Below, in pieces: positions 51,349-64,000 of a stretch of 64,000 nt of DNA. Origin of the DNA: Macrostomum lignano (Eukaryota). The DNA is taken from the NCBI GenBank assembly GCA_002269645.1, contig NIVC01000094.1, positions 868,001-932,000 on the forward strand, given 5' to 3'. The stretch's first letter is position 1; each line of letters opens with the position of its first letter. The notes beneath the pieces were generated by a model. The model saw only the letters and a program-made list of their open reading frames with translations, had not been told where the DNA came from and searched no databases. The translations under genes were made by a program, and so were the position numbers.

Positions 51349-51788
51349 TGTGGTGTCTGGCCTGTTGAGTGCTCTTGCACTTTTTGAGTTGTTTTTGCGT
51401 GCGCCCTAGGCGGCCATCCCCAGACCAGTTCTGGCTGGTTGGGGGGGGGGCGCTCGGCCCAGCTTGAGTCTTTCCCCGCGGCGGCCACTGATTGGCTGGG
51501 CTTGTGTTTTTGTGTTTTTCTTTTCTGGCCCCCAGTCAATCGATCTGCTCGGTGGGCACGCTGATTGGCTGAGGGGTCGTCTCTTTTGTTTGGCGTCTCT
51601 CTCTCTCTCGCGCTGTCTGCCCCTCTACCCTGTTAAGTGGTATATAGTGCTCAAGCCTGGCCCAGCCAGCTCCCCGCTCTCCGCCCCGTGCCAGCTCTCC
51701 AAACTAAACTAGCGATACTCAAGCGAGCCGTGTCTATACGGTCTCTTACTGCGAGGACTCAATTGATTGCGAGCAAATAAAGCGGACA
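51349..51788 (+). mobile_element. Putative LTR (outer element X), ~440 bp
   Basis: TGT...ACA termini, two reverse CCAAT boxes (51491, 51564), TATATA at 51641, AATAAA at 51776, followed 2 nt later by TGGTAGC (PBS-like). No partner LTR in the window. Confidence 0.55.
51728..51773 (+). other. Flatworm spliced-leader-like sequence inside the LTR
   Basis: 51738-51770 matches the Macrostomum lignano SL core, as I recall it from memory, at 31/33 nt. The 5' CCGT..ACGG hairpin is retained and the terminal ATG is replaced by GAG. Confidence 0.6.
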
Positions 51789-51920
51789 GGTGGTAGCGAT
51801 ATTCGAACGGGCTCCAAGCTTCTGGCAACGGTAAGACCCCGAGTTTATTCGCTTCTTTAGCTTTTCCGAGGCCTTGCCGTAGCAGTGGTTCCATAGCTAG
51901 AGCGTCATCACGCCTGCGAC

Positions 51921-52244
51921 TGTGACCACTGCAGCACAGCAGCGTTGTATATTGAGTATTATTGTAGTACTGTACCGGTTACTTTATATAGTGTGTACAA
52001 CCTACAGTATCGAAACTAGAAGCACTCGAGAGTGTCACCACACCTCGAGCCGCAGCGTGAACTCTGAGTGTCACAACACCAGAGGGATCGACCCATTATC
52101 GCAGAGCGTCGCCACGCCTGCTCGTATCCATAAAAGTACAGGCAGAGCGCCACTACGCCTGTTGTATTACGTATAACATATTGTACTTGGGACTGGGCAC
52201 CCAAACCGACCCGGGTTACGAAAAATTGGCGCCCGATGTGGGGC
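51921..52244 (+). mobile_element. 5' LTR (51921-52220) and tRNA-Lys-type PBS (52227-52244) of a Ty3/Gypsy element (Y)
   Basis: Imperfect inverted ends TGTGACC...GGTTACG. TGGCGCCCGATGTGGGGC differs from the Lys1,2 PBS TGGCGCCCAACGTGGGGC at two positions, both G:U-compatible. gag follows. Confidence 0.7.
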
Positions 52245-52471
52245 CCTGTCCCCAAGGATTGAAAGTCGGCTCAATTGCTTTCTATGAAAATTGCTGTCAT
52301 ATTGTTAACCTTTTTTGTCTTACTAAAACGACTGTTGCTTATCGCCTGCGGCTATTGCCCTACCGCAAAAGACATTGAATCTCGGTCACAGACAACTGAT
52401 TGGTTATCAGAGATCGATAGCTATCGCCACCTCATAGTAAAGAGTAGCAACGGTATTCAGAGACTTTGGCC

Positions 52472-52722
52472 ATGGGTGATCAAGCTATGGACCAACTGAT
52501 CGATGCGTTGGCTGCTCGTCTCAGAGCCAACGCCGACCGAGCAGCCCCACGACTCTCAAAGCCGCCCAAGTACATACCAACGATGAATTTCAGCCTATGG
52601 CTGCAGAGTTTCAACGAGTACTGCGAGGCTGTCGGTATAGAAGAAGAAGCCAGGCGGCCGCACTTGATTGGCCTACTCAACCTCACAACGGCCTACGCCG
52701 CGGTCGATAAGCTGGACTTGGC
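52472..52722 (+). pseudogene. gag: Gypsy gag N-terminal fragment, interrupted
   Basis: KPPKYIPTMNFSLWLQSFNEYCEAVG..LIGLL resembles Gypsy gag N-termini. It lies just after the PBS and stops at the DNA-transposon junction. Confidence 0.65.
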
Positions 52723-53093
52723 AAACCGGACGAAAAAACGGACAAATTCCGGCTCAGTTCCGCACGTAGGGACCCGTTTTGATCCGGATTTTTGTCCGGT
52801 TTTCCATCCGGAATCTTGTCCGGTCCTAATCGGACGATTAAGCGGACAAAATCCGGATGGAAACCGGACTAAATCTTGCGAGAGCAGTAAGCAAGCCTTC
52901 ACAGTCTTCACAGTCTACGTCTTTGCAGTCTACGTCTTCGCAGTCTACGAAGTGTACTTTTTAGGTATGCATAACATTGTCCATTGACCTATTATATGAT
53001 AACATTGGTGTGATGCGAGCACTATACATGCACCCTGAAAAACACGACTAACCGTTAGCTCCCCAAATTTGCATTGCAGCCCGCACCTAGTGG

Positions 53094-55820
53094 TTGTCCG
53101 TGTCCATGCAGCCCTCAGGACGCAACCGGTGGCAGTATATTCAGCAGCGAAGGTTCGAGCAGAAGCTGAAAGCAGCCATAAGTAAGGGTCAGCCATCGCG
53201 TTCCCACTCCCCAATACAACGCGATTCTGCAACTCAACAGACCCACGAGCCGAAACCCTCCGGCAGCGTTAATCGTACGCCATGTGTATGTACTGTTCAT
53301 CGAATACATCCCATGGCTGCAACGAGAGAGAGCGTTACTTTTTTTACTACTTCTTTCAATCCCTTATACCTTCTCGGGACAGGCGATGGCATCGTCGCGG
53401 CAGCCAGCGCCAGCGGCGACGAAGCCGACAGCGACACTGACAGCGACGCCAGTGGCGCTGCAACTCAGGGCAGCGGCGACGAGGCCGACAGCGACGCCAG
53501 TGGCGCTGCGACCCAGGAAAGTGGCGACGAGGCCGACAGCGACGCCAGCGGCGCTGTACCGCCAAACTTCGACCTCTTCCAGCACCCATGGCACGATGGG
53601 GTACTGGCTGAGCCAATATACTCCATAGCGGCTGCCGTTTGTGAGGTCAATGACTGCGCTATTGACCTGCAGATTCCCCGCGAAAAAGTCGGCCGGCTTT
53701 TGGCTACAACCCACCGCCTCGTCCTCGGCAACAGGTTGCCGCGGACGGCGAAGACGTTGTGGCGGACTCTGAAAAAGGCCCAAAGTTGCATCGGCTCCTC
53801 AAAGTGCATGACTGTGTGCAATTCCTGTCGATGTAACTATCCAGGAGACAGCAGCCAGAATGAAGGACTTTGTCGAAACTCCAATTCTCAACTTGTCTCA
53901 AATTTCTGGGTGTTCGATATCCGTCAGCAAATTAGGACTTACATCGAGGCCTGTGGATTGCTGCTGAACGTCACCTTTCCAGTGGACTTCCAACAACCGG
54001 AGGATTGCATTCACTTATCAACCACCCAAATGTATGCCGAGTTTATTGAGGCGATTGAACCCCAGGATCGAATGGACTTGTCCTACACCCTGAGCTCGGA
54101 TGGCTTCTCGCTGCATACTACCAGCCGAGTTGAAGTCTGCCCCGTGTATATCAGCATCAACGAAGTCCACGACCGCTTCAAACTGAAGTATGTCGTCATT
54201 TGTGGTGTATGGGCGGGGAAGAAGAAATTGCACGCGTCTGCCTTCCTTCCTTGTTTCATCGGCGCTTTGAATAGCCTGCGCACGCGAGGCGTCACCTACT
54301 TAGACGACAAATCTGTGCGACGGACAATCCGGTTGCATCCGCTTCAGACCCTCTTCGACGCACCCGCTCGGGCCGACGCTCTGAATATGAGGCACTGTAC
54401 GGTCATTTACGGTTGCGACAAGTGCTACATTGCCACACGTCTGCACTCATCCGGCAGTGGTCGCTACTACGACGTGGAGATAACTCCCGCAAAGCTGAAC
54501 GAAGCCGCCCGTCTCGGTTGTGTGCAGACCGTCCTACGCAGCATAACCGACACGTTTCATCTTGCTGAACTGCATCTGCAACGGATACCTCCTGATCCGA
54601 ACGGCGACGTCCTTGGAATCCGCGGTCACTCCCCTCGGCGAAATTCTCGGATTTGACTTCGTTCGAGGCTGTCCACCGTGTTACCTGCATCAGCTCAACA
54701 TCGGCCTATGCAAAATGAAGATGCTGCAGTTTTTTCTGTTCGGCGCGACAAGCCTGACCGTGGCCCAACGCAGTGTCCAGATCTACACGCGAGGCAGGAC
54801 CAAGTAGACGCCCGACTGAGGAATCTTTACGTGCCCGATTGCGTGCAGCGGCATTCCGTTCCTCCGCTAAGTGACCTGCGCAATATGCGCGGTCACGAGT
54901 TTGAAATGTGGCTCCTCGCTTACGGGCCACTCGTTCTTGACGGAATTCTACCAAAGGCCCATATGGACCACTTCAAGGTCCTCTCTTCCGCTGTATTTTG
55001 GATGACGGCTGACTATGCGCCCAAAACCGAATTGCGACACGTGGAAATTTCCCTGCGGCATTACCACGCGAACTTGCAGCGTCTGTTTTCGCTACGGGCT
55101 CTCACCTACAATACACATCAGGTGTGCTGCCACTTGCTGGCCTATGTGCACCTCGCTGGATCCGCGCATCGCCTATCGACTGGTCTCTTTGAAACCATGC
55201 ACAACCGTTTGGCGCAACGTCTTCATGGGACCCGCCCCAGCGATGTCGAATTGGTGAATGCTGTTGAGCGCCAGATCGGCAGCATCCAAGCGAGAGCACG
55301 ACTCCTAGGCCGGCAAGTTCCACGGCAGCAGAATGAGCGGGACCTGCGCCGCTTTAAGTTCCGCACCGTCGGGGGCGCGGTCCTGCGCAGGCCGAAGTCT
55401 CAACAAGTTGGCTGGCAAACCGTCTCGCTGCTGTCTGGCTGGAAAGACAGTGCGTATCGGCCTGCAGGCGCCAGGAGAGACGCGTCCTGCTTTGCGGCTG
55501 TCACCGACCAAACCCCAACAGACTTCCAATTCTATCGGGTAGCCTCCATCGACGTGGAAGGTGACGCTGTCATGCTGAAGATCATCGTGCTGCCCCTGCT
55601 GCAACCCGAGCCGGACCCACTGGAGTCGCTGGACCAGGTTCCTGCAGCCTCAGTAAATCGTGGCTGCCGCTACGTCCACGTTAGGCGACTGGGCTGTGAC
55701 CCATTCGGTGACATACGCATTGAACCGGTCGCCGTGCGACTCGAGGCGCTTCGTGGGGTCTGCGTTCTGTATGGCCGCAAAATTGCCTTGTTGCCCCATC
55801 CGCAATTGTGCTTTGCGTGA
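53094..55820 (+). pseudogene. EnSpm/Tnp2-family transposase with two frameshifts (~54635, ~54790)
   Basis: CxxC motif; LSSDG..CPVY..GVWAGKKK..FLPCF..FDAPARA..YGCDKC; LHQLNIG; EFEMWLLAYGPLVL; LTYNTHQ..H..GLFETMHNRL..LHG. These motifs are typical of animal CMC-EnSpm/Mirage transposases. Confidence 0.8.
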
Positions 55821-57484
55821 ATATTAACTGCTTGAAGGGTTTGAAGAAGGCGCGAAAGCTTATTCGGTGCTTCGTTTGTAACTTCTGTTTCGATACATGT
55901 CCGTTTATTTATTCTACACTAGGTAAGCAAAAGCAATTCAATAAGACAGAGAATTAACTCGTATGGAACATATTCTGCTTGTTCATTTTCTATCTTTTAC
56001 GCTTACAACTTACAACTTTCATAAACACTTGCACTCCTCCCTCACTATCCGCAATCTCCTCCAGAATCCCCTCCCCATGCAGGCTCCCTCCCCCGGAATC
56101 CCCTCCCTGATCTCCACGATCGGATCCCTTTAATTCCACGAACTGTATATTCCACTGTAGAAATGAAGTAGAGAATAAATCTGATGGGTACTCTCTACCT
56201 CACGCCTTTGCAGCTGCATGTCAATTGGGCATTCTGGGCATTTCCAGTCATGGGCGGCTGGACGAAGAGATACCCAGTCCATGCCTCTAGCAGATCTTCG
56301 ATCCTGCATCCAAGAAGCCGAACGACAAGGCGTGCGCGTGTACACGAGCTGCTCTTCGTGGAGGCACTTAACGTGATCGACTCAGGTCGGCTGCCTACAG
56401 GCACTGTTTCCGACGAGACCGCATCAATTAATGCTATAATTAACGTGCCGGCCTGCCGGACGTTTCCGGATATTTAAAAAGGAGCGACAGTTCTTGAGAG
56501 CCCAACACTTTTCAATGTCGACTCCGATCTGCACGGTCGCTACTCGTTGTCTATCGCAGCAGGGCAGATTCGTCGCGTATATCCGTGCCCAGTGGTGGCT
56601 AATTCATTTATGTTCTGGGATGCTTGCATCAAATGCGTCGTTTCAGTCAATAAAATCACTTCAGTCAAACTCGCGGCAATTATTCATTTATTTATTTATT
56701 CGCACGCACACACGCCAATATTATGGTCTGCACCGTTACATACTTCCCACAGGAAGCCACGTTCGTGAGCAATTACGGAACCAAAAAGTTGAGCAGCTAC
56801 CGTGACTACACGATCGTGTCCGCAGAGGAACTTCCGACTAGTCGTCGACCATGTCAACTCGGCTCGCCACCATCATGCAAAACCGGCAGCAGCCCCTCTG
56901 ACGACGGGGCCCATGAAAGCACCGAATGGAACATGTTTGACACCCAGTCTGAGTCCCAGTCTGTGCTGCCGGTGCCGGCATCTGCAGTCTTGGAGTGCGT
57001 CTGCGGCCAAGGCAATTTCCTCGGCTGCACTTGGTGCAGGCGACATGCTAAGAAGTAGAAAAAGTTTTGCAGCAGAAACTATTTTGCGGTCTAGTATAGC
57101 CTAACCTATAGTTTGGTTGCCGAATTGCATTTTCGGCATTTTAGTTCTTCTGTTAGTTGTGGCTTACCCTGATAATAGACATCATTCTTGGGAGAACTGC
57201 TGAGTTCTCTATTTGTGGAAATAATTGTGTCTTTTTTTCTTTGTTTTTACTGTTTTAAGTTTCCATAGAAAGGCTTATGTGCTCCTCTCCTCTCCTCTCT
57301 CCTGTATCCTCTCTCCTCTCTCCTATCCTCTCTCCCTCTCCTCTCTTCTCCTCTCCGCCATCCGCCATCCGTTACGGACAGTTCGCTTTCGTATTCAATT
57401 CAGTTGTAATTAAGTCAATAAAGTCAGCCACAGAAATTTTTACAGAACATCACAAAACGTTTCCCGCAGCACAACTGCATCGTT

Positions 57485-59413
57485 ATGGGCCACTCAAGTA
57501 AATCCAAAGGATAAAAAAAACAAAGTGAAAAAAACGAAGCGAAAAGTCTACTTTGAAACGGACAACACAGGTGTCTGAGAAGACGACCACCGTCACCAAA
57601 AGGCGAAAACTGGAAGCGGCTGCTGCTTCCGCTGCTGCTTCGGCCGAGCCACCGACCTCGGGCTCTACTGGTGCTGCTGGTTCTGCTGCTGCTTAGGCCG
57701 AGCCGCCGACCTCGAGCTCTACTAGTGCTACTGGTTCTGCTGCTGCTTCGGCCGAGCCGCCGAACTCGGGCTCTACTGCAGATCCTGCTGCTTCCGCTAC
57801 TTCTGCATACTTGCAGTACGACTGCGTGCCGTACAAAATAGAGAGTACGAGGAAATTTTTTTTATTCAAATATATCAACTATCACGAGAAAACCGATGTG
57901 GTCTCCACGTACGATATTGTCGGCCGACAACGCGATTCGCCAATACCCGTCGCTGTGGGCAGCGAAGTTCTTATAATCAAGGCTAAAGTCAGTAGAACCG
58001 CGGCCAAAAAGTGGCATGGCACCCTGGTGCAGGGGCCATTCACAGAAAAGAATGCAGCCGCGCGTGCAGCTTCGTTAACAAATGTTCACTCCACGAGTGT
58101 CGAGCTGCCAAGGACTTGTGGCTCCTGCCGCAGCTTCTCTGTCGAAGTCCAGCGCCAGTTGGCGCTAATAGATACTTTACGTGAGTAAATTTTTACATTT
58201 TTAGACATACATACACCCCAAGCCATGATCCTCAACAGGACAATTCCCGCATATTTATAGGGGACAGCTAAAATCAGCGACTCAGAAGGAGATCCAGCTG
58301 CGCGAGGATAATCGGTCGCTGGCGGAGCAGCTCCGCGTATCCAGCAGAATGGAAAAGTCTGCTGCGCCAGTTGGAGGCAGAGCAGCGGCGCAACACTATA
58401 TTGGTTGAAGCTGCGCAGCGCAGCAACTCGCTGCTTCTCAAATCGTCGGACATCCTCTGCCACGCCACGTCCGGCCGGGTACAGTCCGGTACCAGTCAGT
58501 CCCTGACTGATCGGGAAGCTTCTGAGTCAAGCATGCAGCGGAGAGGAGCCGTTGGTGCAGCGGCGTGTGCCCATCAACAAGACGAAGTGAGGCCGATGAG
58601 GTCGATGAGGATCTCAGTTTCACATGCGAACAGAATCTGTCTGTTGCACAGACTCGTGCGCTGCTGACTGCAAGCCAGAAGGCAGCAAACTGTTCGGAGA
58701 ACTCGTCCTCGTCCGGCTACGTGTCGCTCTCGGAGACGCAGCCGTTCGTCAAGGTGCAATTTCAGCGGCGCGCGGATCTTCAAAGGCGACTGGAAGAATT
58801 CGGAAAGGTGCCAGCCCCGTCCGATGCGGAGCACGCAGATGTCACGTTCATTCGTGCAACGGCCCTGCAGGCCCTCCTCCGCGCTCTGCTGCGCACTATG
58901 TTCACGGACGAACAATTTGCTGGCTCTAGCATTTCGGGTCGCAAATCAGAGGTGGCAAACCCAGGAAAGATGGCTGCGGTGCGAATCTGGCTGGCCGCAA
59001 ACAAAATTTGCTACACGCAAGCCAATCTAAACAGGGCGTTCAATCGTTGCAGTGATACGGCTAAATACCACCTCGGCATCTCGGATATCAAAAAGCGTAC
59101 ATCTATGTCGGTCCCAATGCGGTCCAAGAAGCCCGGTACAGGTGCCGCTGCAACGAAGCGCTCTAAGAAATCCGCCCAGAGCAGTGAGAGCACAGTTGTT
59201 GTCATCGTGGACGGTCCCAGTAGCGCCAACCAGAACATCTATCCGTCTGCTTCGATTGCTACAGTTGCCAGTTCGGCCGATGCGAGCGCCGGCAGTTCGA
59301 CAGCCAATTCCGGCAGTAGCGGCACTGTCGATATGCTGCAGGAACTGTATTCGAAGGATTGGCTGATTTTTATAGTTCAGACTTTCAGACTTTCCTACGT
59401 TTTGATCGTATGA
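57485..59413 (+). pseudogene. Transposon accessory protein: Lys-rich start, Ala/Ser repeats, coiled coil and C-terminal BEN-like domain; disrupted
   Basis: ALLRALLRTMFTDEQFAGSSISGRKSEVANPGKMAAVRIWL..LNRAFNRC fits the BEN pattern. In-frame TAG at 57694 where sister repeats have TCG. Intron ~58181-58260 and frameshifts. Confidence 0.6.
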
Positions 59414-59986
59414 GCAGGTTGAAGCAACGTTTTGAGGAGCGTGAATAAACGCGAATCGACGAAGGATTGTTTCTTTCAGTGTTCTTAGTAATTCAATGGA
59501 TAAATCTACTGTACAGGAAATTGTGTTTCATGCGTTTAATTTATTTCTTTATAAAAACGGTGCATGTACAATCAGTACGTAGTGAACTACTGGCTACAGT
59601 AGTAACAGTAGTAGTAGTAGCAGCAGTAGTAAACAAAATCAGTATTCCGTCTTCCGGTTTTCGCCCGTTGTTGGTCCGCTTCTTCATCCGGTTCGGCCCC
59701 ACAGTCGCACTCGCCCAGTTTTCCCCCGCTTTTGGACCGCTTCCTCGTCCGGTTCGTTCAGCAGTCACGTTGGTCCAGTTTTCGCCCGCTTTTGGTCCGG
59801 CTGTTGGTCCGGGAACCGCCCGGACGAACTACCGGATGAAATTCCAGATGAGTACCGGGCGAAGCAACCGGACGAAGCCTTAAAAAAACATGTTCTCGTC
59901 CGGAATTGTAACCATTTCCGGACAAACGAGATAGGAGAAAATACATAACGCACCGGATGAAAAACCGGACCACTTGGCCAGGCAGG

Positions 59987-62900
59987 AAGACACTGCGATC
60001 CCGTTTCGATGGCAAGCTGAGCGTCCGATCGTTTGCAGAATTTTGGCGAAAATGTCCAGCACGATACCGCCAGGTCATCAAGCAGTTCTGTCAGCAAGGC
60101 TGGAGAGCAACGGACGACGCAACAGTGGGTGCGTCGGTCTAACTGAGAACCTCGGAGCGAACGATTTGGCAGCTGGCCGCTGGCTTGCTAAGGCCTTGGT
60201 GATCCCAAATAGCGGCAGCCGTCTGCCGACTCGACTCATCAATATCACGGAGGAGCCAGTCAGACTTCGCGCATAGGTTGTACGCTCGGGTGGTTCTACC
60301 CCTTAGAATCCACGGAACCGTTGAACACCATCGAGTTCTTGGCCGTCGAGTCAGGAGACAATCCATAGGAGAAACAGAATGTCCAAGGCGACAAGAGTAC
60401 TTCGGAAGCAGACTTGCTACCAAACTCGTACGGCGACTGCGAACTGTCGAAGGAAGAAGACGAAGAATTTCGAATCCTTGTCCGGAGTTACAGCGATGTG
60501 TTCACGACCAAGCAGACTTCAAGCAAGTTAACTACGGTGGTGGAGCATGAAACCGAGAATGCGTGCCCAATCAAGATTCCACCTCGTCGTCTGCCTCCCC
60601 ACTTACAGCCAGAAGTAGATCGCCAAGTCAACGAGCTGCTGCAAAAAGGGCAGATCGAAGAAGCACAGTCACCATGGAGCTTCCCTCTGATGTGCGTAAA
60701 GAAGAAATCAGGTGAAATGAGGATGTGCGTTGATTATCGAAAGTTGAATGAGGTCACTGTCAAGGATGCAGTGCCGATGTCGAGGGTCGACGACGCGCTG
60801 GAGGCAGTACACGGCGCCAAGATCTTCTCGACAATGGACCTTCACAGCGGATTTTGGCAAGTAGGGGTGAGACCTCAGGATCAAGACAAGACGGCGTTTG
60901 CAGTGCCGCATCGCGGACAATTTCGATGGAAGGTTATGCCGTTCGGCTTAGTGAACAGCCCAGCAACATTCACCAGGTTGATGGCAGCCGTATTGGACAA
61001 GCAGATGTGGAAGACCTGTCTGGTCTACATCGACGATATTCTGGTTTGGTCAACAGTCTTTGATGAACACCTGAGAAGACTGGAGGAAATATTCAGCAAG
61101 TTACGGCAAGCAAATTTGTGTCTGAAGCCCCAGAAGTGTCACTTTTTGCAAAAGCAAGTGAAATTTCTCGGTCACACGCTGTCGGCTGCTGGCATTAGTA
61201 CCGATGAGGAGAAAGTTCAAGAAGTGAAGGCCTGGCCAACACCGCGATCCTCGACGGAGCTGCATTCATCTTGGGCCTGGATGGCTATTAAAGGAACTTT
61301 ATTACCCGCAATAGCAGCGCCTCTAACTCGGTTAACAACAAAAGACAACAAAAGAAAGTTTGAGTGGGAAACGGAACAGCAGCTGGCGTTCGAAACATTG
61401 AAGGAACGAATGACAAGTTCAGAGGTTATAGCTCATCCGGATTTCTCCCCAGATGCCGGAGAGTTTATTCTCGATACTGATGGCAGTTCGAAGATGGGGA
61501 TAGGAGCTGTAATTTCTCAAGTCCAGTCAGATGGATCAGAACGAGCCTATGGTAGTATGGGTCCAAGACACTAAATCACGACTCGTTTAGAACTACTAGC
61601 GGTTGTGACTTTTCATCATGAAGTTCAGATATTATCTGCTTGGAAAAGCGTTCTGTCTGCGCACGGACCACAGCAGCCTGCAATGGTTAAAAAACTTCAG
61701 TGATGCCGAGGGACAGGTTGCTAGTTGGTTGGAGAAGTTGGCTCCATTTCAGTATTGCATCGTTCACAGACCAGGTCGATTGCATGGCAACGCGGACGCA
61801 ATTTCGAGGAAGCCAGTACGGAGACACTTTGGAGCGGAGACATGCCTTTCATGTGCGCAGCATCCGGAAGGACTAAATGCAGTCGAATTTGAACAATTTT
61901 CAGTCGGCAATCTGGCAAGCGAGCAGGATCAAGACGACGATTTAAGAACAGTAAAGGAAGCTCTTGGCTCAATCCCGGTTCCAGATAAAAGCGCGACTGC
62001 TTGGAGTCCATTAGCTAGAGCTGTTTGGACTCGAAAAGACGACCTGGTACTGCAAGAGAACGTGCTCCTGGTGAGGAACAAAGACAAGCGCGACGAGTAT
62101 CAAATTGTGCTGCCACGAAAGACTGGATCGTACCTTGAAAACCCTACACGAGGGAGTGGGAGGCGGCCACATGCGAAGACAAAATTAAAAGTGCTTCAGC
62201 GCTACTGGCGTCCAGGATTGTCTCGTGCCATTGAATAATATATTCGCGGTTGTGCCACCTGCTGCAAGTCAAAGCCGGGCAAGCGAAACCGAGCACCCCT
62301 GCAACCGTTGACATTCGCAGCACCATTCGATTGCGTCATGATGGACATTGTCGGGCCGCTACCGCGGAGTAAGGCTGGAAACATTTATCTCCTGACGGTC
62401 CAAGACTCGTTTACGAAATGGCCTGACCCGTACCCGCTTCGCAACCAGAAGGCAAGGACGGTGGCAAGGGCGCTTTTCAATCGATGGATTAGCCAGCATG
62501 GATGTCCGAGTACTTTGCACATTGACCAAGGAAGAAACTTCGAATCGCAAGTGATGCGCGAAATGTGCAGAATTCTCGAGATCCGCAAGTCCAGAACAAC
62601 AGCTTATCATCCGAGCGGAAATGGACAAGTAGAAAACTTCAATAAAAGCCTAAAATCCAAGCAGCACAATCAAGTGCTGCTTAGAAGATTCAGGACGAAA
62701 CGACTGGGAAGAATTTGTCAGCTCGGCGTTAATGGCGTACCGATCAAGCGTGCATAGAGCTACGGGTTATACCCCCCACTACATGGTCTATGGCACGGAG
62801 ATGCGCCTACCGATAGACTTGACTGACTAACCGCCACAGCCTGTCGAGTCGCATGTAAATTTCGTCAAGGAGCTAGAAGACAAGTTGCTGACAGCTCATC

Positions 62901-63445
62901 GCGCTGCTCGACAGCAGTTGAATACTTATCAGCGGCGACAGAAGGACCAGTACGATAAAAAACCCGAGGATCTGATATCCAGAAGGGTGACCATGTCTTC
63001 GTCTACTGCCGCGCCCTAAAACCAGACGAAGCCGCAAAGTTCCACGTAAGCTGGCTCGGCCCGGTGAAGGTGCTCGAAAGAAGATCTGAGGTGCTCTTCA
63101 AGGTGGAAAACCCGTCAAATCGTAAAAAGTCGAAGTTCGTCCACTTCAACAATCTCCGGAAGTTCGCTCGACCGGCCGCCCTGGAAGCACCAGTTGGCAC
63201 CGCGGCACCGCCGGAGGTAGTCGCCGAGACGGACTCGGAGTGAGATGCGGACTCGGCCTTGGACTCGGCCTCAACCGATGCCGCCACAGGTCGCCGAGGA
63301 AGTCGCCGAGGTGCTGGAAGAGCAGATGGAGTTTGTTGACGGCCCGCAGACTATCCATAACCCAGTGGAAGCCGCACCCGAGCCTCAAAGGTCCGGAAGG
63401 TTGCGTCGGCCGCCAGATCGCTATGGCCAGCCAGTGACATTCTAA
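59987..63445 (+). pseudogene. pol: Ty3/Gypsy pol (RT, RNase H, integrase) with stops and frameshifts; protease not found
   Basis: SPWSFPLMCVKKK, RMCVDYRKLN, VMPFGLVNSPATF, YIDD; ILDTDGS..IGAVISQ, RTDHSSLQWL, NADAISR; MDIVGPLP, DQGRNFES, TTAYHPSGNGQVE; C-terminal RSGRLRRPPDRY. Order RT-RH-IN is Gypsy-type. Confidence 0.92.
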
Positions 63446-63850
63446 TGGGTTATCCGTCATCGTGAAGTCTCATCAGCTTCATATGCGATTATCATTAAAA
63501 GCTAAAAATTTACTTCACCAATGCGTCATTCATCATGAATACGAGTACTTCACTCATGCATCATTCATCATGAGTACGAGCAGTTCGCCAATGCGTAATT
63601 CAAGTAGTTCGTCAATGCGTCATTAAAATCACCTTACGGCACGGATTAAGGTGGCTATCGTTGTGTTTCCAAGTCACCTCTCTCTCTCTAAGCAAATATT
63701 TTGGTGGTGGACTGGGTATTGGACCCTTGTGCGGTTTCTGGTCTGGTAGAAGCGACGGGACCGAAAGGTCGGCTGATGACGCTCTAGCAACGAACCTAGG
63801 GAGCTAGGGATGTGCGTAGGAAATCTCAAAGCGGCTGCCTCGTGTTGCAG

Positions 63851-64000
63851 ATGAATTTGTACGCCGTGCTCGGAGTCCAGCACTCGGCCGAGCGTGCCGA
63901 GATCAGGCGAGTCTATCGACAGCTTGCACTCTTCTGGCACCCGGACAAGTACCCGGACAGGGAGCTCGCCAGCCGCCGATTTCAAGAGATCGAGACGGCC
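63851..64000 (+). CDS. J-domain (DnaJ/Hsp40) ORF, partial, runs off the window
   Basis: Manual translation MNLYAVLGVQHSAERAEIRRVYRQLALFWHPDKYPDRELASRRFQEIETA shows J-domain helices and an intact HPD motif. It is preceded directly by a TTGCAG acceptor-like site. Confidence 0.85.
   Translation, partial: MNLYAVLGVQHSAERAEIRRVYRQLALFWHPDKYPDRELASRRFQEIETA

What the first reader, a model, noticed from the sequence alone, without database searches (positions are those of the whole stretch)
51728..51870. LTR carries a spliced-leader mimic followed by an SL-RNA-like splice donor
Seen: CCGTGTCTATACGGTCTCTTACTGCGAGGACTCAATTGATTGCGAG lies downstream of the LTR TATA box. 57 nt later come GCAACG|GTAAGACC and a U-rich GCTTCTTTAG tract. 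Recalled from memory, needs checking: the M. lignano SL is about CCGTAAAGACGGTCTCTTACTGCGAAGACTCAATTTATTGCATG, giving 31/33 core identity, the same 5' hairpin with a different loop, and loss of the conserved terminal ATG. Flatworm SL RNAs continue GCATG|GTAAGA with a U-rich Sm-like site. Inference: the retroelement captured or mimics the host SL, so its RNAs look like trans-spliced self mRNA. It may cis-splice this leader onto a downstream ORF such as the J-domain acceptor at 63850, or donate it in trans. SL-targeting elements I know (NeSL, SLACS/CZAR) are non-LTR and insert into SL genes, which is a different arrangement.
Basis: partly seen in the sequence, partly recalled or inferred. Interest (0 to 1): 0.85.

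Follow-up and report, generated by a model that had tools for sequence, protein, structure and literature searches.

The report
Host spliced leader captured in LTRs
A flatworm retrotransposon family carries a copy of the host's trans-splicing leader inside its terminal repeats, likely picked up again and again when reverse transcriptase copied trans-spliced RNAs, and this copy likely lets the enzyme jump between element and host messenger RNAs.

Summary
Observation confirmed. 51727-51773 matches the published Macrostomum lignano spliced leader (31 of 35 nt) and lies in the 5' LTR of a broken Ty3/gypsy element. All 41 LTR copies examined (15 insertion sites) carry it.

It is not an SL-RNA-like donor. 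The GTAAG donor region aligns with SL-free sister LTRs, and the SL intron's hairpins are missing.

At 7 of 15 sites a fresher, ATG-ended leader is present. At 6 it is joined right after an AG of the LTR. At one it brings about 55 nt of a host dihydropyrimidinase-like 5' UTR that starts exactly at that gene's acceptor. A second, young family (about 60% RT identity) carries a 41-43 of 45 leader copy in both LTRs of 13 of 13 elements.

Best reading: the leader was captured by reverse transcription of trans-spliced RNA and now serves as a template-switch site. No extra conservation was found. Transcription, splicing and any benefit are untested. SL fragments at LTR repeats were noted in passing for parasitic flatworms; I found no family-level fixation or repeated capture in the papers searched.

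The parts
51349..52223 (+). 5' LTR (family 'A'), 875 nt
   Evidence: TG start, primer-binding site directly behind; solo copies elsewhere run TGT..ACA with 4-bp target duplications
51640..51647 (+). TATA-like box; start of transcription predicted about 25-30 nt downstream (not measured)
   Evidence: sequence; TATA-like motifs at similar LTR offsets in families B, C, D
51710..51728 (+). upstream copy of a 19-nt direct repeat; holds the two AG sites (51711-51712, 51722-51723) at which fresh leaders are joined in other copies
   Evidence: 15 of 19 identical to 51794-51812; junctions in L023, L030, L084, L085, L089, L114-L118 (first AG) and L020, L021 (second AG)
51727..51773 (+). SL-derived block (aged copy of the host spliced-leader exon, terminal ATG lost)
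   Evidence: 31 of 35 to the published SL; present in 41 of 41 LTR places
51776..51781 (+). AATAAA, predicted poly(A) signal; would place the SL block inside R
   Evidence: sequence; an AATAAA lies shortly before the donor in SL-free B and D LTRs too; cleavage site not measured
51794..51812 (+). downstream copy of the 19-nt direct repeat
51831..51860 (+). predicted native LTR splice donor GTAAG and pyrimidine tract ending in AG
   Evidence: aligns with the donor regions of SL-free families B and D; use not shown
52227..52244 (+). primer-binding site, tRNA-Lys type (assignment recalled, not tested)
   Evidence: differs from the PBS of families B, C, D
52472..52723 (+). 5' part of gag, cut off by an insertion
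   Evidence: 93% nt identity to family B; translation
52727..59988 (.). foreign insertion with Transposase_21-like ORFs, replacing about 1.5-2.5 kb of the element
   Evidence: gap in the alignments to B elements; Atlas first hit 0.95, PF02992 on 44% of its members; no Pfam hit
59989..63626 (+). pol region in pieces (RT, RNase H, integrase; Ty3/gypsy order) and its 3' flank
   Evidence: Pfam RVT_1, RT_RNaseH, rve; 92% nt to family B
63851..64000 (+). element-borne J-domain ORF behind a conserved acceptor (AG at 63849-63850); broken further on, and no 3' LTR follows
   Evidence: Pfam DnaJ E 6.8e-15; same acceptor context in all 13 B and 12 C loci where the ORF start was found

Best explanation
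The block is a copy of the host spliced-leader exon fixed in the LTR of a Ty3/gypsy family, likely captured when reverse transcriptase copied a trans-spliced RNA, and it likely acts as a homology site where the enzyme switches template between leader-bearing RNAs and the element. Inferred step 1: some element transcripts are trans-spliced at AG sites in R, so their 5' end becomes the leader. Inferred step 2: strong-stop DNA then ends in anti-leader. The first time it joined the 3' end of the RNA by microhomology, leaving the short direct repeats seen on both sides of the block. Inferred step 3: from then on both LTRs inherit the block. Because the poly(A) signal lies behind it, the 3' R end offers about 45 nt of homology to any leader-bearing RNA in the particle. 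Shown as products in the genome: tandem fresh-plus-old leaders joined exactly after an AG, mosaics of old loop and fresh 3' end, and one captured host 5' UTR. Whether this is selected for or merely tolerated is open; the data fit tolerance with occasional refreshing.
For: (1) The block is in 41 of 41 family-A places, 15 insertion sites by flanks. (2) 7 of 15 sites hold a leader ending in ATG; at 6 it is joined directly after one of two AG sites of the LTR; in no family-A copy printed is it followed by the SL intron. (3) In L009 and its 4 sister copies the leader is followed by sequence 59 of 66 identical to a host locus (L189-L193). The match begins right after that locus's ..CATTTCAG acceptor and ends in a 12-nt stretch shared with the LTR; the ORF behind it is dihydropyrimidinase-like, E 5e-18. 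Only a trans-spliced mRNA holds leader and UTR joined in this way. (4) Host SL genes come in two 3'-end classes, and LTR copies carry both, in loop and 3'-end combinations absent from the 73 host gene copies read. (5) Family C (RT 60% identical; LTR not alignable by blastn except for the leader) has the leader in both LTRs of 13 of 13 elements, flanked by its own short direct repeat behind an AG. One C copy (L182) has a 45 of 45 leader with 5 of its 9 substitutions within 6 nt at the leader's end. (6) The sister family B (RT 96% identical) has no block in 20 of 20 loci. (7) Leader-headed LINE-like copies show that mobile-element RNAs receive the SL here.
Against: The block is not more conserved than its neighbours among 17 copies (0.057-0.069 differences per letter, against 0.034-0.067), so no selection is shown (low power, solo LTRs decay evenly). 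The five sites with the same junction may descend from one event; the LTR trees are star-like and do not decide. Mosaics could reflect host SL variants not sampled (73 read of 105 junction hits). In family C the AATAAA lies before the block, so there it may fall outside R. Young, successful family B does without the block. Copies at one insertion site differ in the block (L034 against L113; L012 against L020; L003 against L085), so DNA-level conversion, collapse or assembly error also shapes it.
Confidence: 0.75

Rival explanations
1. Adaptive rescue: the block is kept by selection because it lets trans-spliced genomic RNA, which has lost its own 5' R, still complete strand transfer.
For: Likely two separate fixations (A and C). 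In A the poly(A) signal lies right behind the block and the stretch before it looks like a decayed signal. Secondary captures at 7 of 15 A sites against none in 20 B loci.
Against: No excess conservation. B thrives without it. B copies are young and nearly identical, so they offer few independent trials. In C the signal precedes the block.
Confidence: 0.3
2. One reading: the block makes element RNA look trans-spliced (translation, self-recognition), is cis-spliced from 51830 onto the J-domain ORF, or serves as an internal promoter starting transcription at the leader.
For: Hairpin stem kept; ATG lost in both families. Donor and J acceptor conserved, so a spliced mRNA would carry the block in its first exon. 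An SL exon acting as an internal promoter element is recalled for Ascaris (not read; one search gave one listing).
Against: The block starts 80 nt (A) and about 87 nt (C) behind the TATA box. The donor is older than the block. In C another ATG stands in the same frame 21 nt further on, which weakens the case for selection against the ATG. No excess conservation.
Confidence: 0.12
3. The LTR captured a whole SL-RNA gene (exon plus intron) and works as an SL donor in trans.
For: The first 11 nt of the donor match the host SL intron at 10 of 11 in the window and 11 of 11 in L026-L028. Given GTAAG, at least 5 of 6 further matches has about 0.5% chance by hand calculation under uniform letters.
Against: 57 nt of native LTR separate block and donor. 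The region aligns with SL-free LTRs. Whole-intron alignment is not significant, and the predicted fold lacks the SL intron's two hairpins. The exon-to-donor pairing of true SL RNA (P 1.0) has P at most 0.11 in 9 of 10 A copies.
Confidence: 0.04
4. DNA-level insertion or gene conversion from SL-RNA genes or leader-headed retrocopies, without element RNA being trans-spliced.
For: 105 SL gene junction hits and several leader-headed retrocopies exist as donors. Sister copies of one insertion differ in the block.
Against: Joins fall exactly after AG sites and never include the SL intron. The L009 insert matched only the host gene's own loci and the LTR copies (10 of 10 hits).
Confidence: 0.08

Closest known systems
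SL fragments at LTR and LINE repeats in parasitic flatworms (PMC12582326, passages read)
   Same: Partial leader without other SL-RNA features at mobile elements (597 loci discarded); the authors suggest integration of retrotransposons whose transcripts received the SL.
   Different: A passing remark, in other species. No position in the LTR, no fixation in both LTRs, no repeated capture and no host-UTR capture in the passages read.
Relict spliced leaders of dinoflagellate retrogenes (PMC3229502, passages read)
   Same: Tandem fresh-plus-aged leaders built by cycles of trans-splicing at an AG, reverse transcription and reintegration.
   Different: There these are host genes copied passively. 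Here the leader sits in a replicating LTR, must survive strand transfer and is inherited by both LTRs.
Cer1, Ty3/gypsy of C. elegans (PMC3315495, passages read)
   Same: An LTR element in a trans-splicing host, with a spliced subgenomic mRNA for an extra protein that can receive SL1.
   Different: Its genomic RNA is reported as not trans-spliced; no leader copy in the LTR is mentioned in the passages read.
Retroviral transduction of host RNA by template switching (recalled, no call)
   Same: Reverse transcriptase leaves the genomic RNA at short homology, copies a co-packaged host RNA and returns.
   Different: Here one ready-made 45-nt homology is shared with the 5' ends of about 30% of host genes (share from PMC8629364), and 5' UTRs are captured into the LTR.
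SL-gene-targeting non-LTR elements NeSL, SLACS/CZAR/CRE (recalled)
   Same: A mobile element associated with SL sequence.
   Different: Those insert into SL-RNA genes by target priming. Here flanks are diverse with 4-bp duplications and the SL is inside the element.
M. lignano SL RNA gene (PMC8629364, first two of four parts read)
   Same: Exon sequence and 5' hairpin.
   Different: No adjacent donor, no intron hairpins, no ATG; TATA and poly(A) context of an LTR.

Membership tests
Ty3/gypsy LTR retrotransposon | RT-RNase H-integrase order in pol | tested here: met
   Pfam
Ty3/gypsy LTR retrotransposon | TG..CA LTR, PBS, target-site duplication, paired LTRs | tested here: met
   LTR and PBS in the window; 4-bp duplications at solo copies; paired LTRs in relatives B and C. 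The window copy has no 3' LTR in the next 10 kb
Gmr1/Osvaldo clade | RT phylogeny with named members | not tested
   Only a recalled hint from the Lys-type PBS; the clade is listed for this species in PMC12801592
SL RNA gene | leader exon homologous to the host SL | tested here: met
   31 of 35
SL RNA gene | donor directly after the leader's ATG | tested here: not met
   ATG absent, 57-nt native spacer
SL RNA gene | intron with two hairpins flanking an Sm-like site | tested here: not met
   alignment not above shuffles; predicted fold differs
SL RNA gene | short TMG-capped transcript starting at the leader | not testable with these tools
   only contigs were available
Relict SL (retro-copied trans-spliced RNA) | leader joined right after an AG acceptor, without SL intron | tested here: met
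   6 of 15 A sites at LTR AGs, 1 at a host acceptor
Relict SL (retro-copied trans-spliced RNA) | tandem leaders, the inner one more decayed | tested here: met
   double blocks at 6 of 15 sites; the downstream block is the GAG/GAAG/CTAG-ended old type at 5 of them, ATG-ended in L023
Relict SL (retro-copied trans-spliced RNA) | the source RNA is trans-spliced today | tested here: inconclusive
   contigs only; see Tried and rejected
SL-targeting non-LTR element (NeSL/CRE type) | inserted into SL-RNA genes; non-LTR RT | tested here: not met
   15 unrelated flanks, LTR-type pol

The most novel reading that the evidence does not exclude
These LTR retrotransposons have adapted to a trans-splicing host by building the spliced leader into their terminal repeat, so that genomic RNA whose 5' end was replaced by the leader still completes strand transfer. 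As a by-product the leader is a universal recombination handle to the 5' ends of thousands of host mRNAs and of other elements, driving LTR turnover and 5'-UTR transduction.
Probability: 0.3. Interest if true: 0.85.

Novelty: new variant of a known kind. Interest (0 to 1): 0.62.

Why it matters
Trans-splicing should cripple an LTR element, because it removes the 5' R that strand transfer needs; Cer1 is reported to avoid it. These families show the fossil record of another outcome: the leader enters the LTR, spreads with it, and is exchanged again with host RNAs, once bringing a host 5' UTR along. This gives a mechanism for the many SL-bearing LTR loci set aside in flatworm SL surveys. It makes a clear question testable with end-mapped RNA data: do LTR elements in trans-splicing hosts avoid, tolerate or exploit the leader? 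In practice, at least 83 LTR-borne leader copies (41 A, 42 C junctions) can draw SL-tagged reads and disturb SL-gene counts and trans-splicing annotation.

Tried and rejected
RNA evidence: no RNA holder listed (RNA labels were guesses). Contigs of 4 runs laid on 51349-64000 listed no joint 51830-63851 and no new leader junction; tables were cut. The one leader joint seen, in X1 and X6, equals genomic copy L085. Depth followed copy number, as in the unlabelled run X18. This is neither for nor against expression or splicing.

Rfam: 3 weak hits, none an SL family. Leader-to-donor pairing as a splice switch: P at most 0.11 in 9 of 10 A copies, 0.69 in L004, 0 in one C copy; not supported. Excess conservation of the block: not seen (the pre-block figure of 0.21 is inflated by misaligned double copies). 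Trees of U5 (26 rows) and U3 (25 rows; three rows mis-cut) resolved little beyond sister copies. A leader-free form of the family C LTR: 0 hits, which does not show absence. A first search for the L009 insert by a 26-nt pattern found only its 5 LTR copies; the DNA search then found the host loci. A shared origin of the A and C blocks: the TATA-to-block stretches align at z 1.5 only, so it is unproven either way. Sources of the few letters behind the fresh leaders in L034 and L182 were not found. Of 193 SL-core hits, 93 were not listed, so further SL-bearing families may exist. Earlier scan findings: none.

Full report
Observation. The block lies at 51727-51773. It matches 31 of 35 nt of the SL published for Macrostomum lignano (PMC8629364), keeps the 5' hairpin stem with a longer loop, and ends GAG instead of ATG. 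The species is inferred from this match. TATA is at 51640-51647, AATAAA at 51776-51781, the donor GT at 51831 and a pyrimidine tract ends in AG at 51860. The host's own SL-RNA genes were read from the genome: 105 exon-intron junction hits, 73 copies read, in two 3'-end classes and several loop variants.

The element. The LTR runs 51349-52223 and is followed by a PBS and the start of gag. A 7.3-kb insertion with Transposase_21-like ORFs interrupts it (no Pfam hit). RT, RNase H and integrase follow in pieces, then a J-domain ORF behind an acceptor at 63850. No 3' LTR lies in the next 10 kb, so this copy is dead. Of 33 LTR-end-plus-PBS hits, two end like this copy: the window and its near-twin on C2590. 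Most other family-A copies are solo LTRs with 4-bp duplications. A young sister family B shares the internal region (92-93% nt, RT 96%) and the U5 part, has paired LTRs 98.6-100% alike where both were held, and lacks the block in 20 of 20 loci fetched. Four more distant relatives (D, L121-L124) lack it too.

The block is family-wide. The LTR search scored 40 of 265 candidates; a pattern added one place. All 41 carry the block, one with its 5' end cut. By flanks they are 15 insertion sites.

The donor is not SL-derived. The stretch from the poly(A) signal to 150 nt past the donor aligns with SL-free B and D LTRs at z 12 and 11 (0 of 300 shuffles), and not with family C. The 60 nt after the donor match host SL introns no better than shuffles (19% and 6%), and the predicted fold lacks the intron hairpins. 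One point stays unexplained: the first 11 nt match the SL intron at 10 of 11, and at 11 of 11 in L026-L028.

Repeated capture. At 7 of 15 sites a leader ending in ATG is present. At five it is a class II leader joined right after the AG at 51712 (L023, L030/L084, L085, L089/L117/L118, L114-L116); these may share one event. At one it is a class I leader joined after the AG at 51723 (L020/L021). In these the fresh leader stands in tandem before a second block. Loop and 3' end are often of different origin, in combinations absent from the 73 host copies read, as expected from a crossover inside the leader. The clearest case is L009 and four sister copies. The leader's ATG is followed by sequence 59 of 66 identical to five host loci (L189-L193), beginning right after their ..CATTTCAG acceptor, which fits the published trans-acceptor motif, and ending in 12 nt shared with the LTR. 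The ORF behind it is dihydropyrimidinase-like. This join is what a trans-spliced host mRNA looks like; that this gene is trans-spliced there was not checked in RNA.

A second family. A 26-nt SL core found 193 places at up to 2 mismatches, 100 listed, many in same-strand pairs 7.2-8.0 kb apart. Thirteen such pairs were fetched: all are LTR elements with PBS, polypurine tract and the leader in both LTRs; 12 of 13 have LTRs 98.7-99.9% alike. The J-domain ORF start was found in 12 of the 14 loci. RT is 60% identical to the window's. The leader is 41-43 of 45 identical in 37 of 38 blocks counted, ATG changed; 42 junction hits exist. It sits 19 nt behind an AATAAA, a few nt behind an AG, between short direct repeats; family A has a 15 of 19 repeat around its block. 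The 38th block (L182) is 45 of 45, with 5 of that LTR's 9 substitutions in 6 nt at the leader's end, likely a fresh exchange. Independent gain in A and C is the simpler reading, since A's closer relatives lack the block, but an old shared gain with loss in B and D is not excluded.

Mechanism. Shown: the block, its fixation, the junction positions, the host UTR and the second family. Inferred: trans-splicing of element RNA at AG sites in R; strong-stop DNA ending in anti-leader; a first join by microhomology at the RNA's 3' end; later switches by full leader homology, to element or host RNAs. Untested: transcription, start and end sites, use of the donor, and benefit. Against a selected function: no excess conservation among 17 copies, family B succeeds without the block, and in C the poly(A) signal precedes it. 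Against purely RNA-level shaping: sister copies of one insertion differ in the block.

Literature. PMC12582326 (passages) set aside 597 SL-bearing loci at LTR and LINE repeats in parasitic flatworms and suggests integration of trans-spliced retrotransposon transcripts. PMC3229502 (passages) describes tandem relict leaders in dinoflagellates. PMC3315495 (passages) reports SL1 on Cer1's spliced mRNA but not on its genomic RNA. PMC4558846 (passages) shows LTR donors splicing in cis to host trans-acceptors. PMC12801592, on LTR elements of this species (part 1 of 6 read; term search of text and five supplements), has no hit for 'splic' or 'leader' in the text nor for 'spliced' or 'leader' in the supplements. 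PMC10468722, PMC9911081 and PMC10309623 (term searches) added nothing on this. Searches listed no paper whose title or abstract start describes a leader fixed in LTRs; most listed papers were not opened. The earlier LTR classification cited by PMC12801592, bioRxiv supplements and subscription papers were not seen.

Verdict. New variant of a known kind (relict leaders, template-switch transduction). Confidence 0.75 in capture and reuse by reverse transcription, 0.3 that it is an adaptation. Interest 0.62.

Noticed in passing
window 63851-64000; L076:7155-7700; families B and C: Families A, B and C carry an extra J-domain (DnaJ) ORF between pol and the element's 3' end, behind a conserved acceptor. 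A co-chaperone domain in an LTR element is unusual; one paper search listed 15 of 49 papers, none with the term 'DnaJ domain'.
   Followed up: partly
L164:477-945, L047, L040-L051, L139:1662: A short element (about 450 bp in L164) with an AAC-repeat tail is inserted in the SL exon of many SL-RNA genes with a 15-nt target duplication. It looks like a non-autonomous SL-targeting non-LTR element; no RT was found in L164, L165 or L139.
   Followed up: partly
L053, L055, L058, L179, L037, L056, L143, L198-L201: Several LINE-like copies with endonuclease- and RT-like ORFs (read by eye, no Pfam scan) begin with a full leader at different insertion sites.
   Followed up: partly
L139-L141, L150-L163: The host has more SL-RNA variants than the single published leader: a second class with other 3' ends, loops and intron, in 1.1-1.65 kb tandem arrays.
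   Followed up: partly
window 52227-52244: The PBS differs from that of families B, C and D although gag is 93% identical to B: a likely primer tRNA switch.
   Followed up: no
window 52727-59988: An insertion with Transposase_21-like (CACTA-type, label recalled) ORFs replaces part of gag-pol; its ends hold CCGGA-rich repeats.
   Followed up: partly
L133, L134: These family C LTRs have lost the AATAAA before the leader, in both LTRs of L133.
   Followed up: no
L121-L124: Elements share U5 with family A (91-95%) and the whole LTR with B (about 81%), but their internal region is only about 70% like B: LTR and body recombine between families.
   Followed up: no
window 51831-51860: Donor and AG enclose 30 nt, a possible micro-intron or a further trans-acceptor; TTTTCAG in L026-L028.
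   Followed up: no
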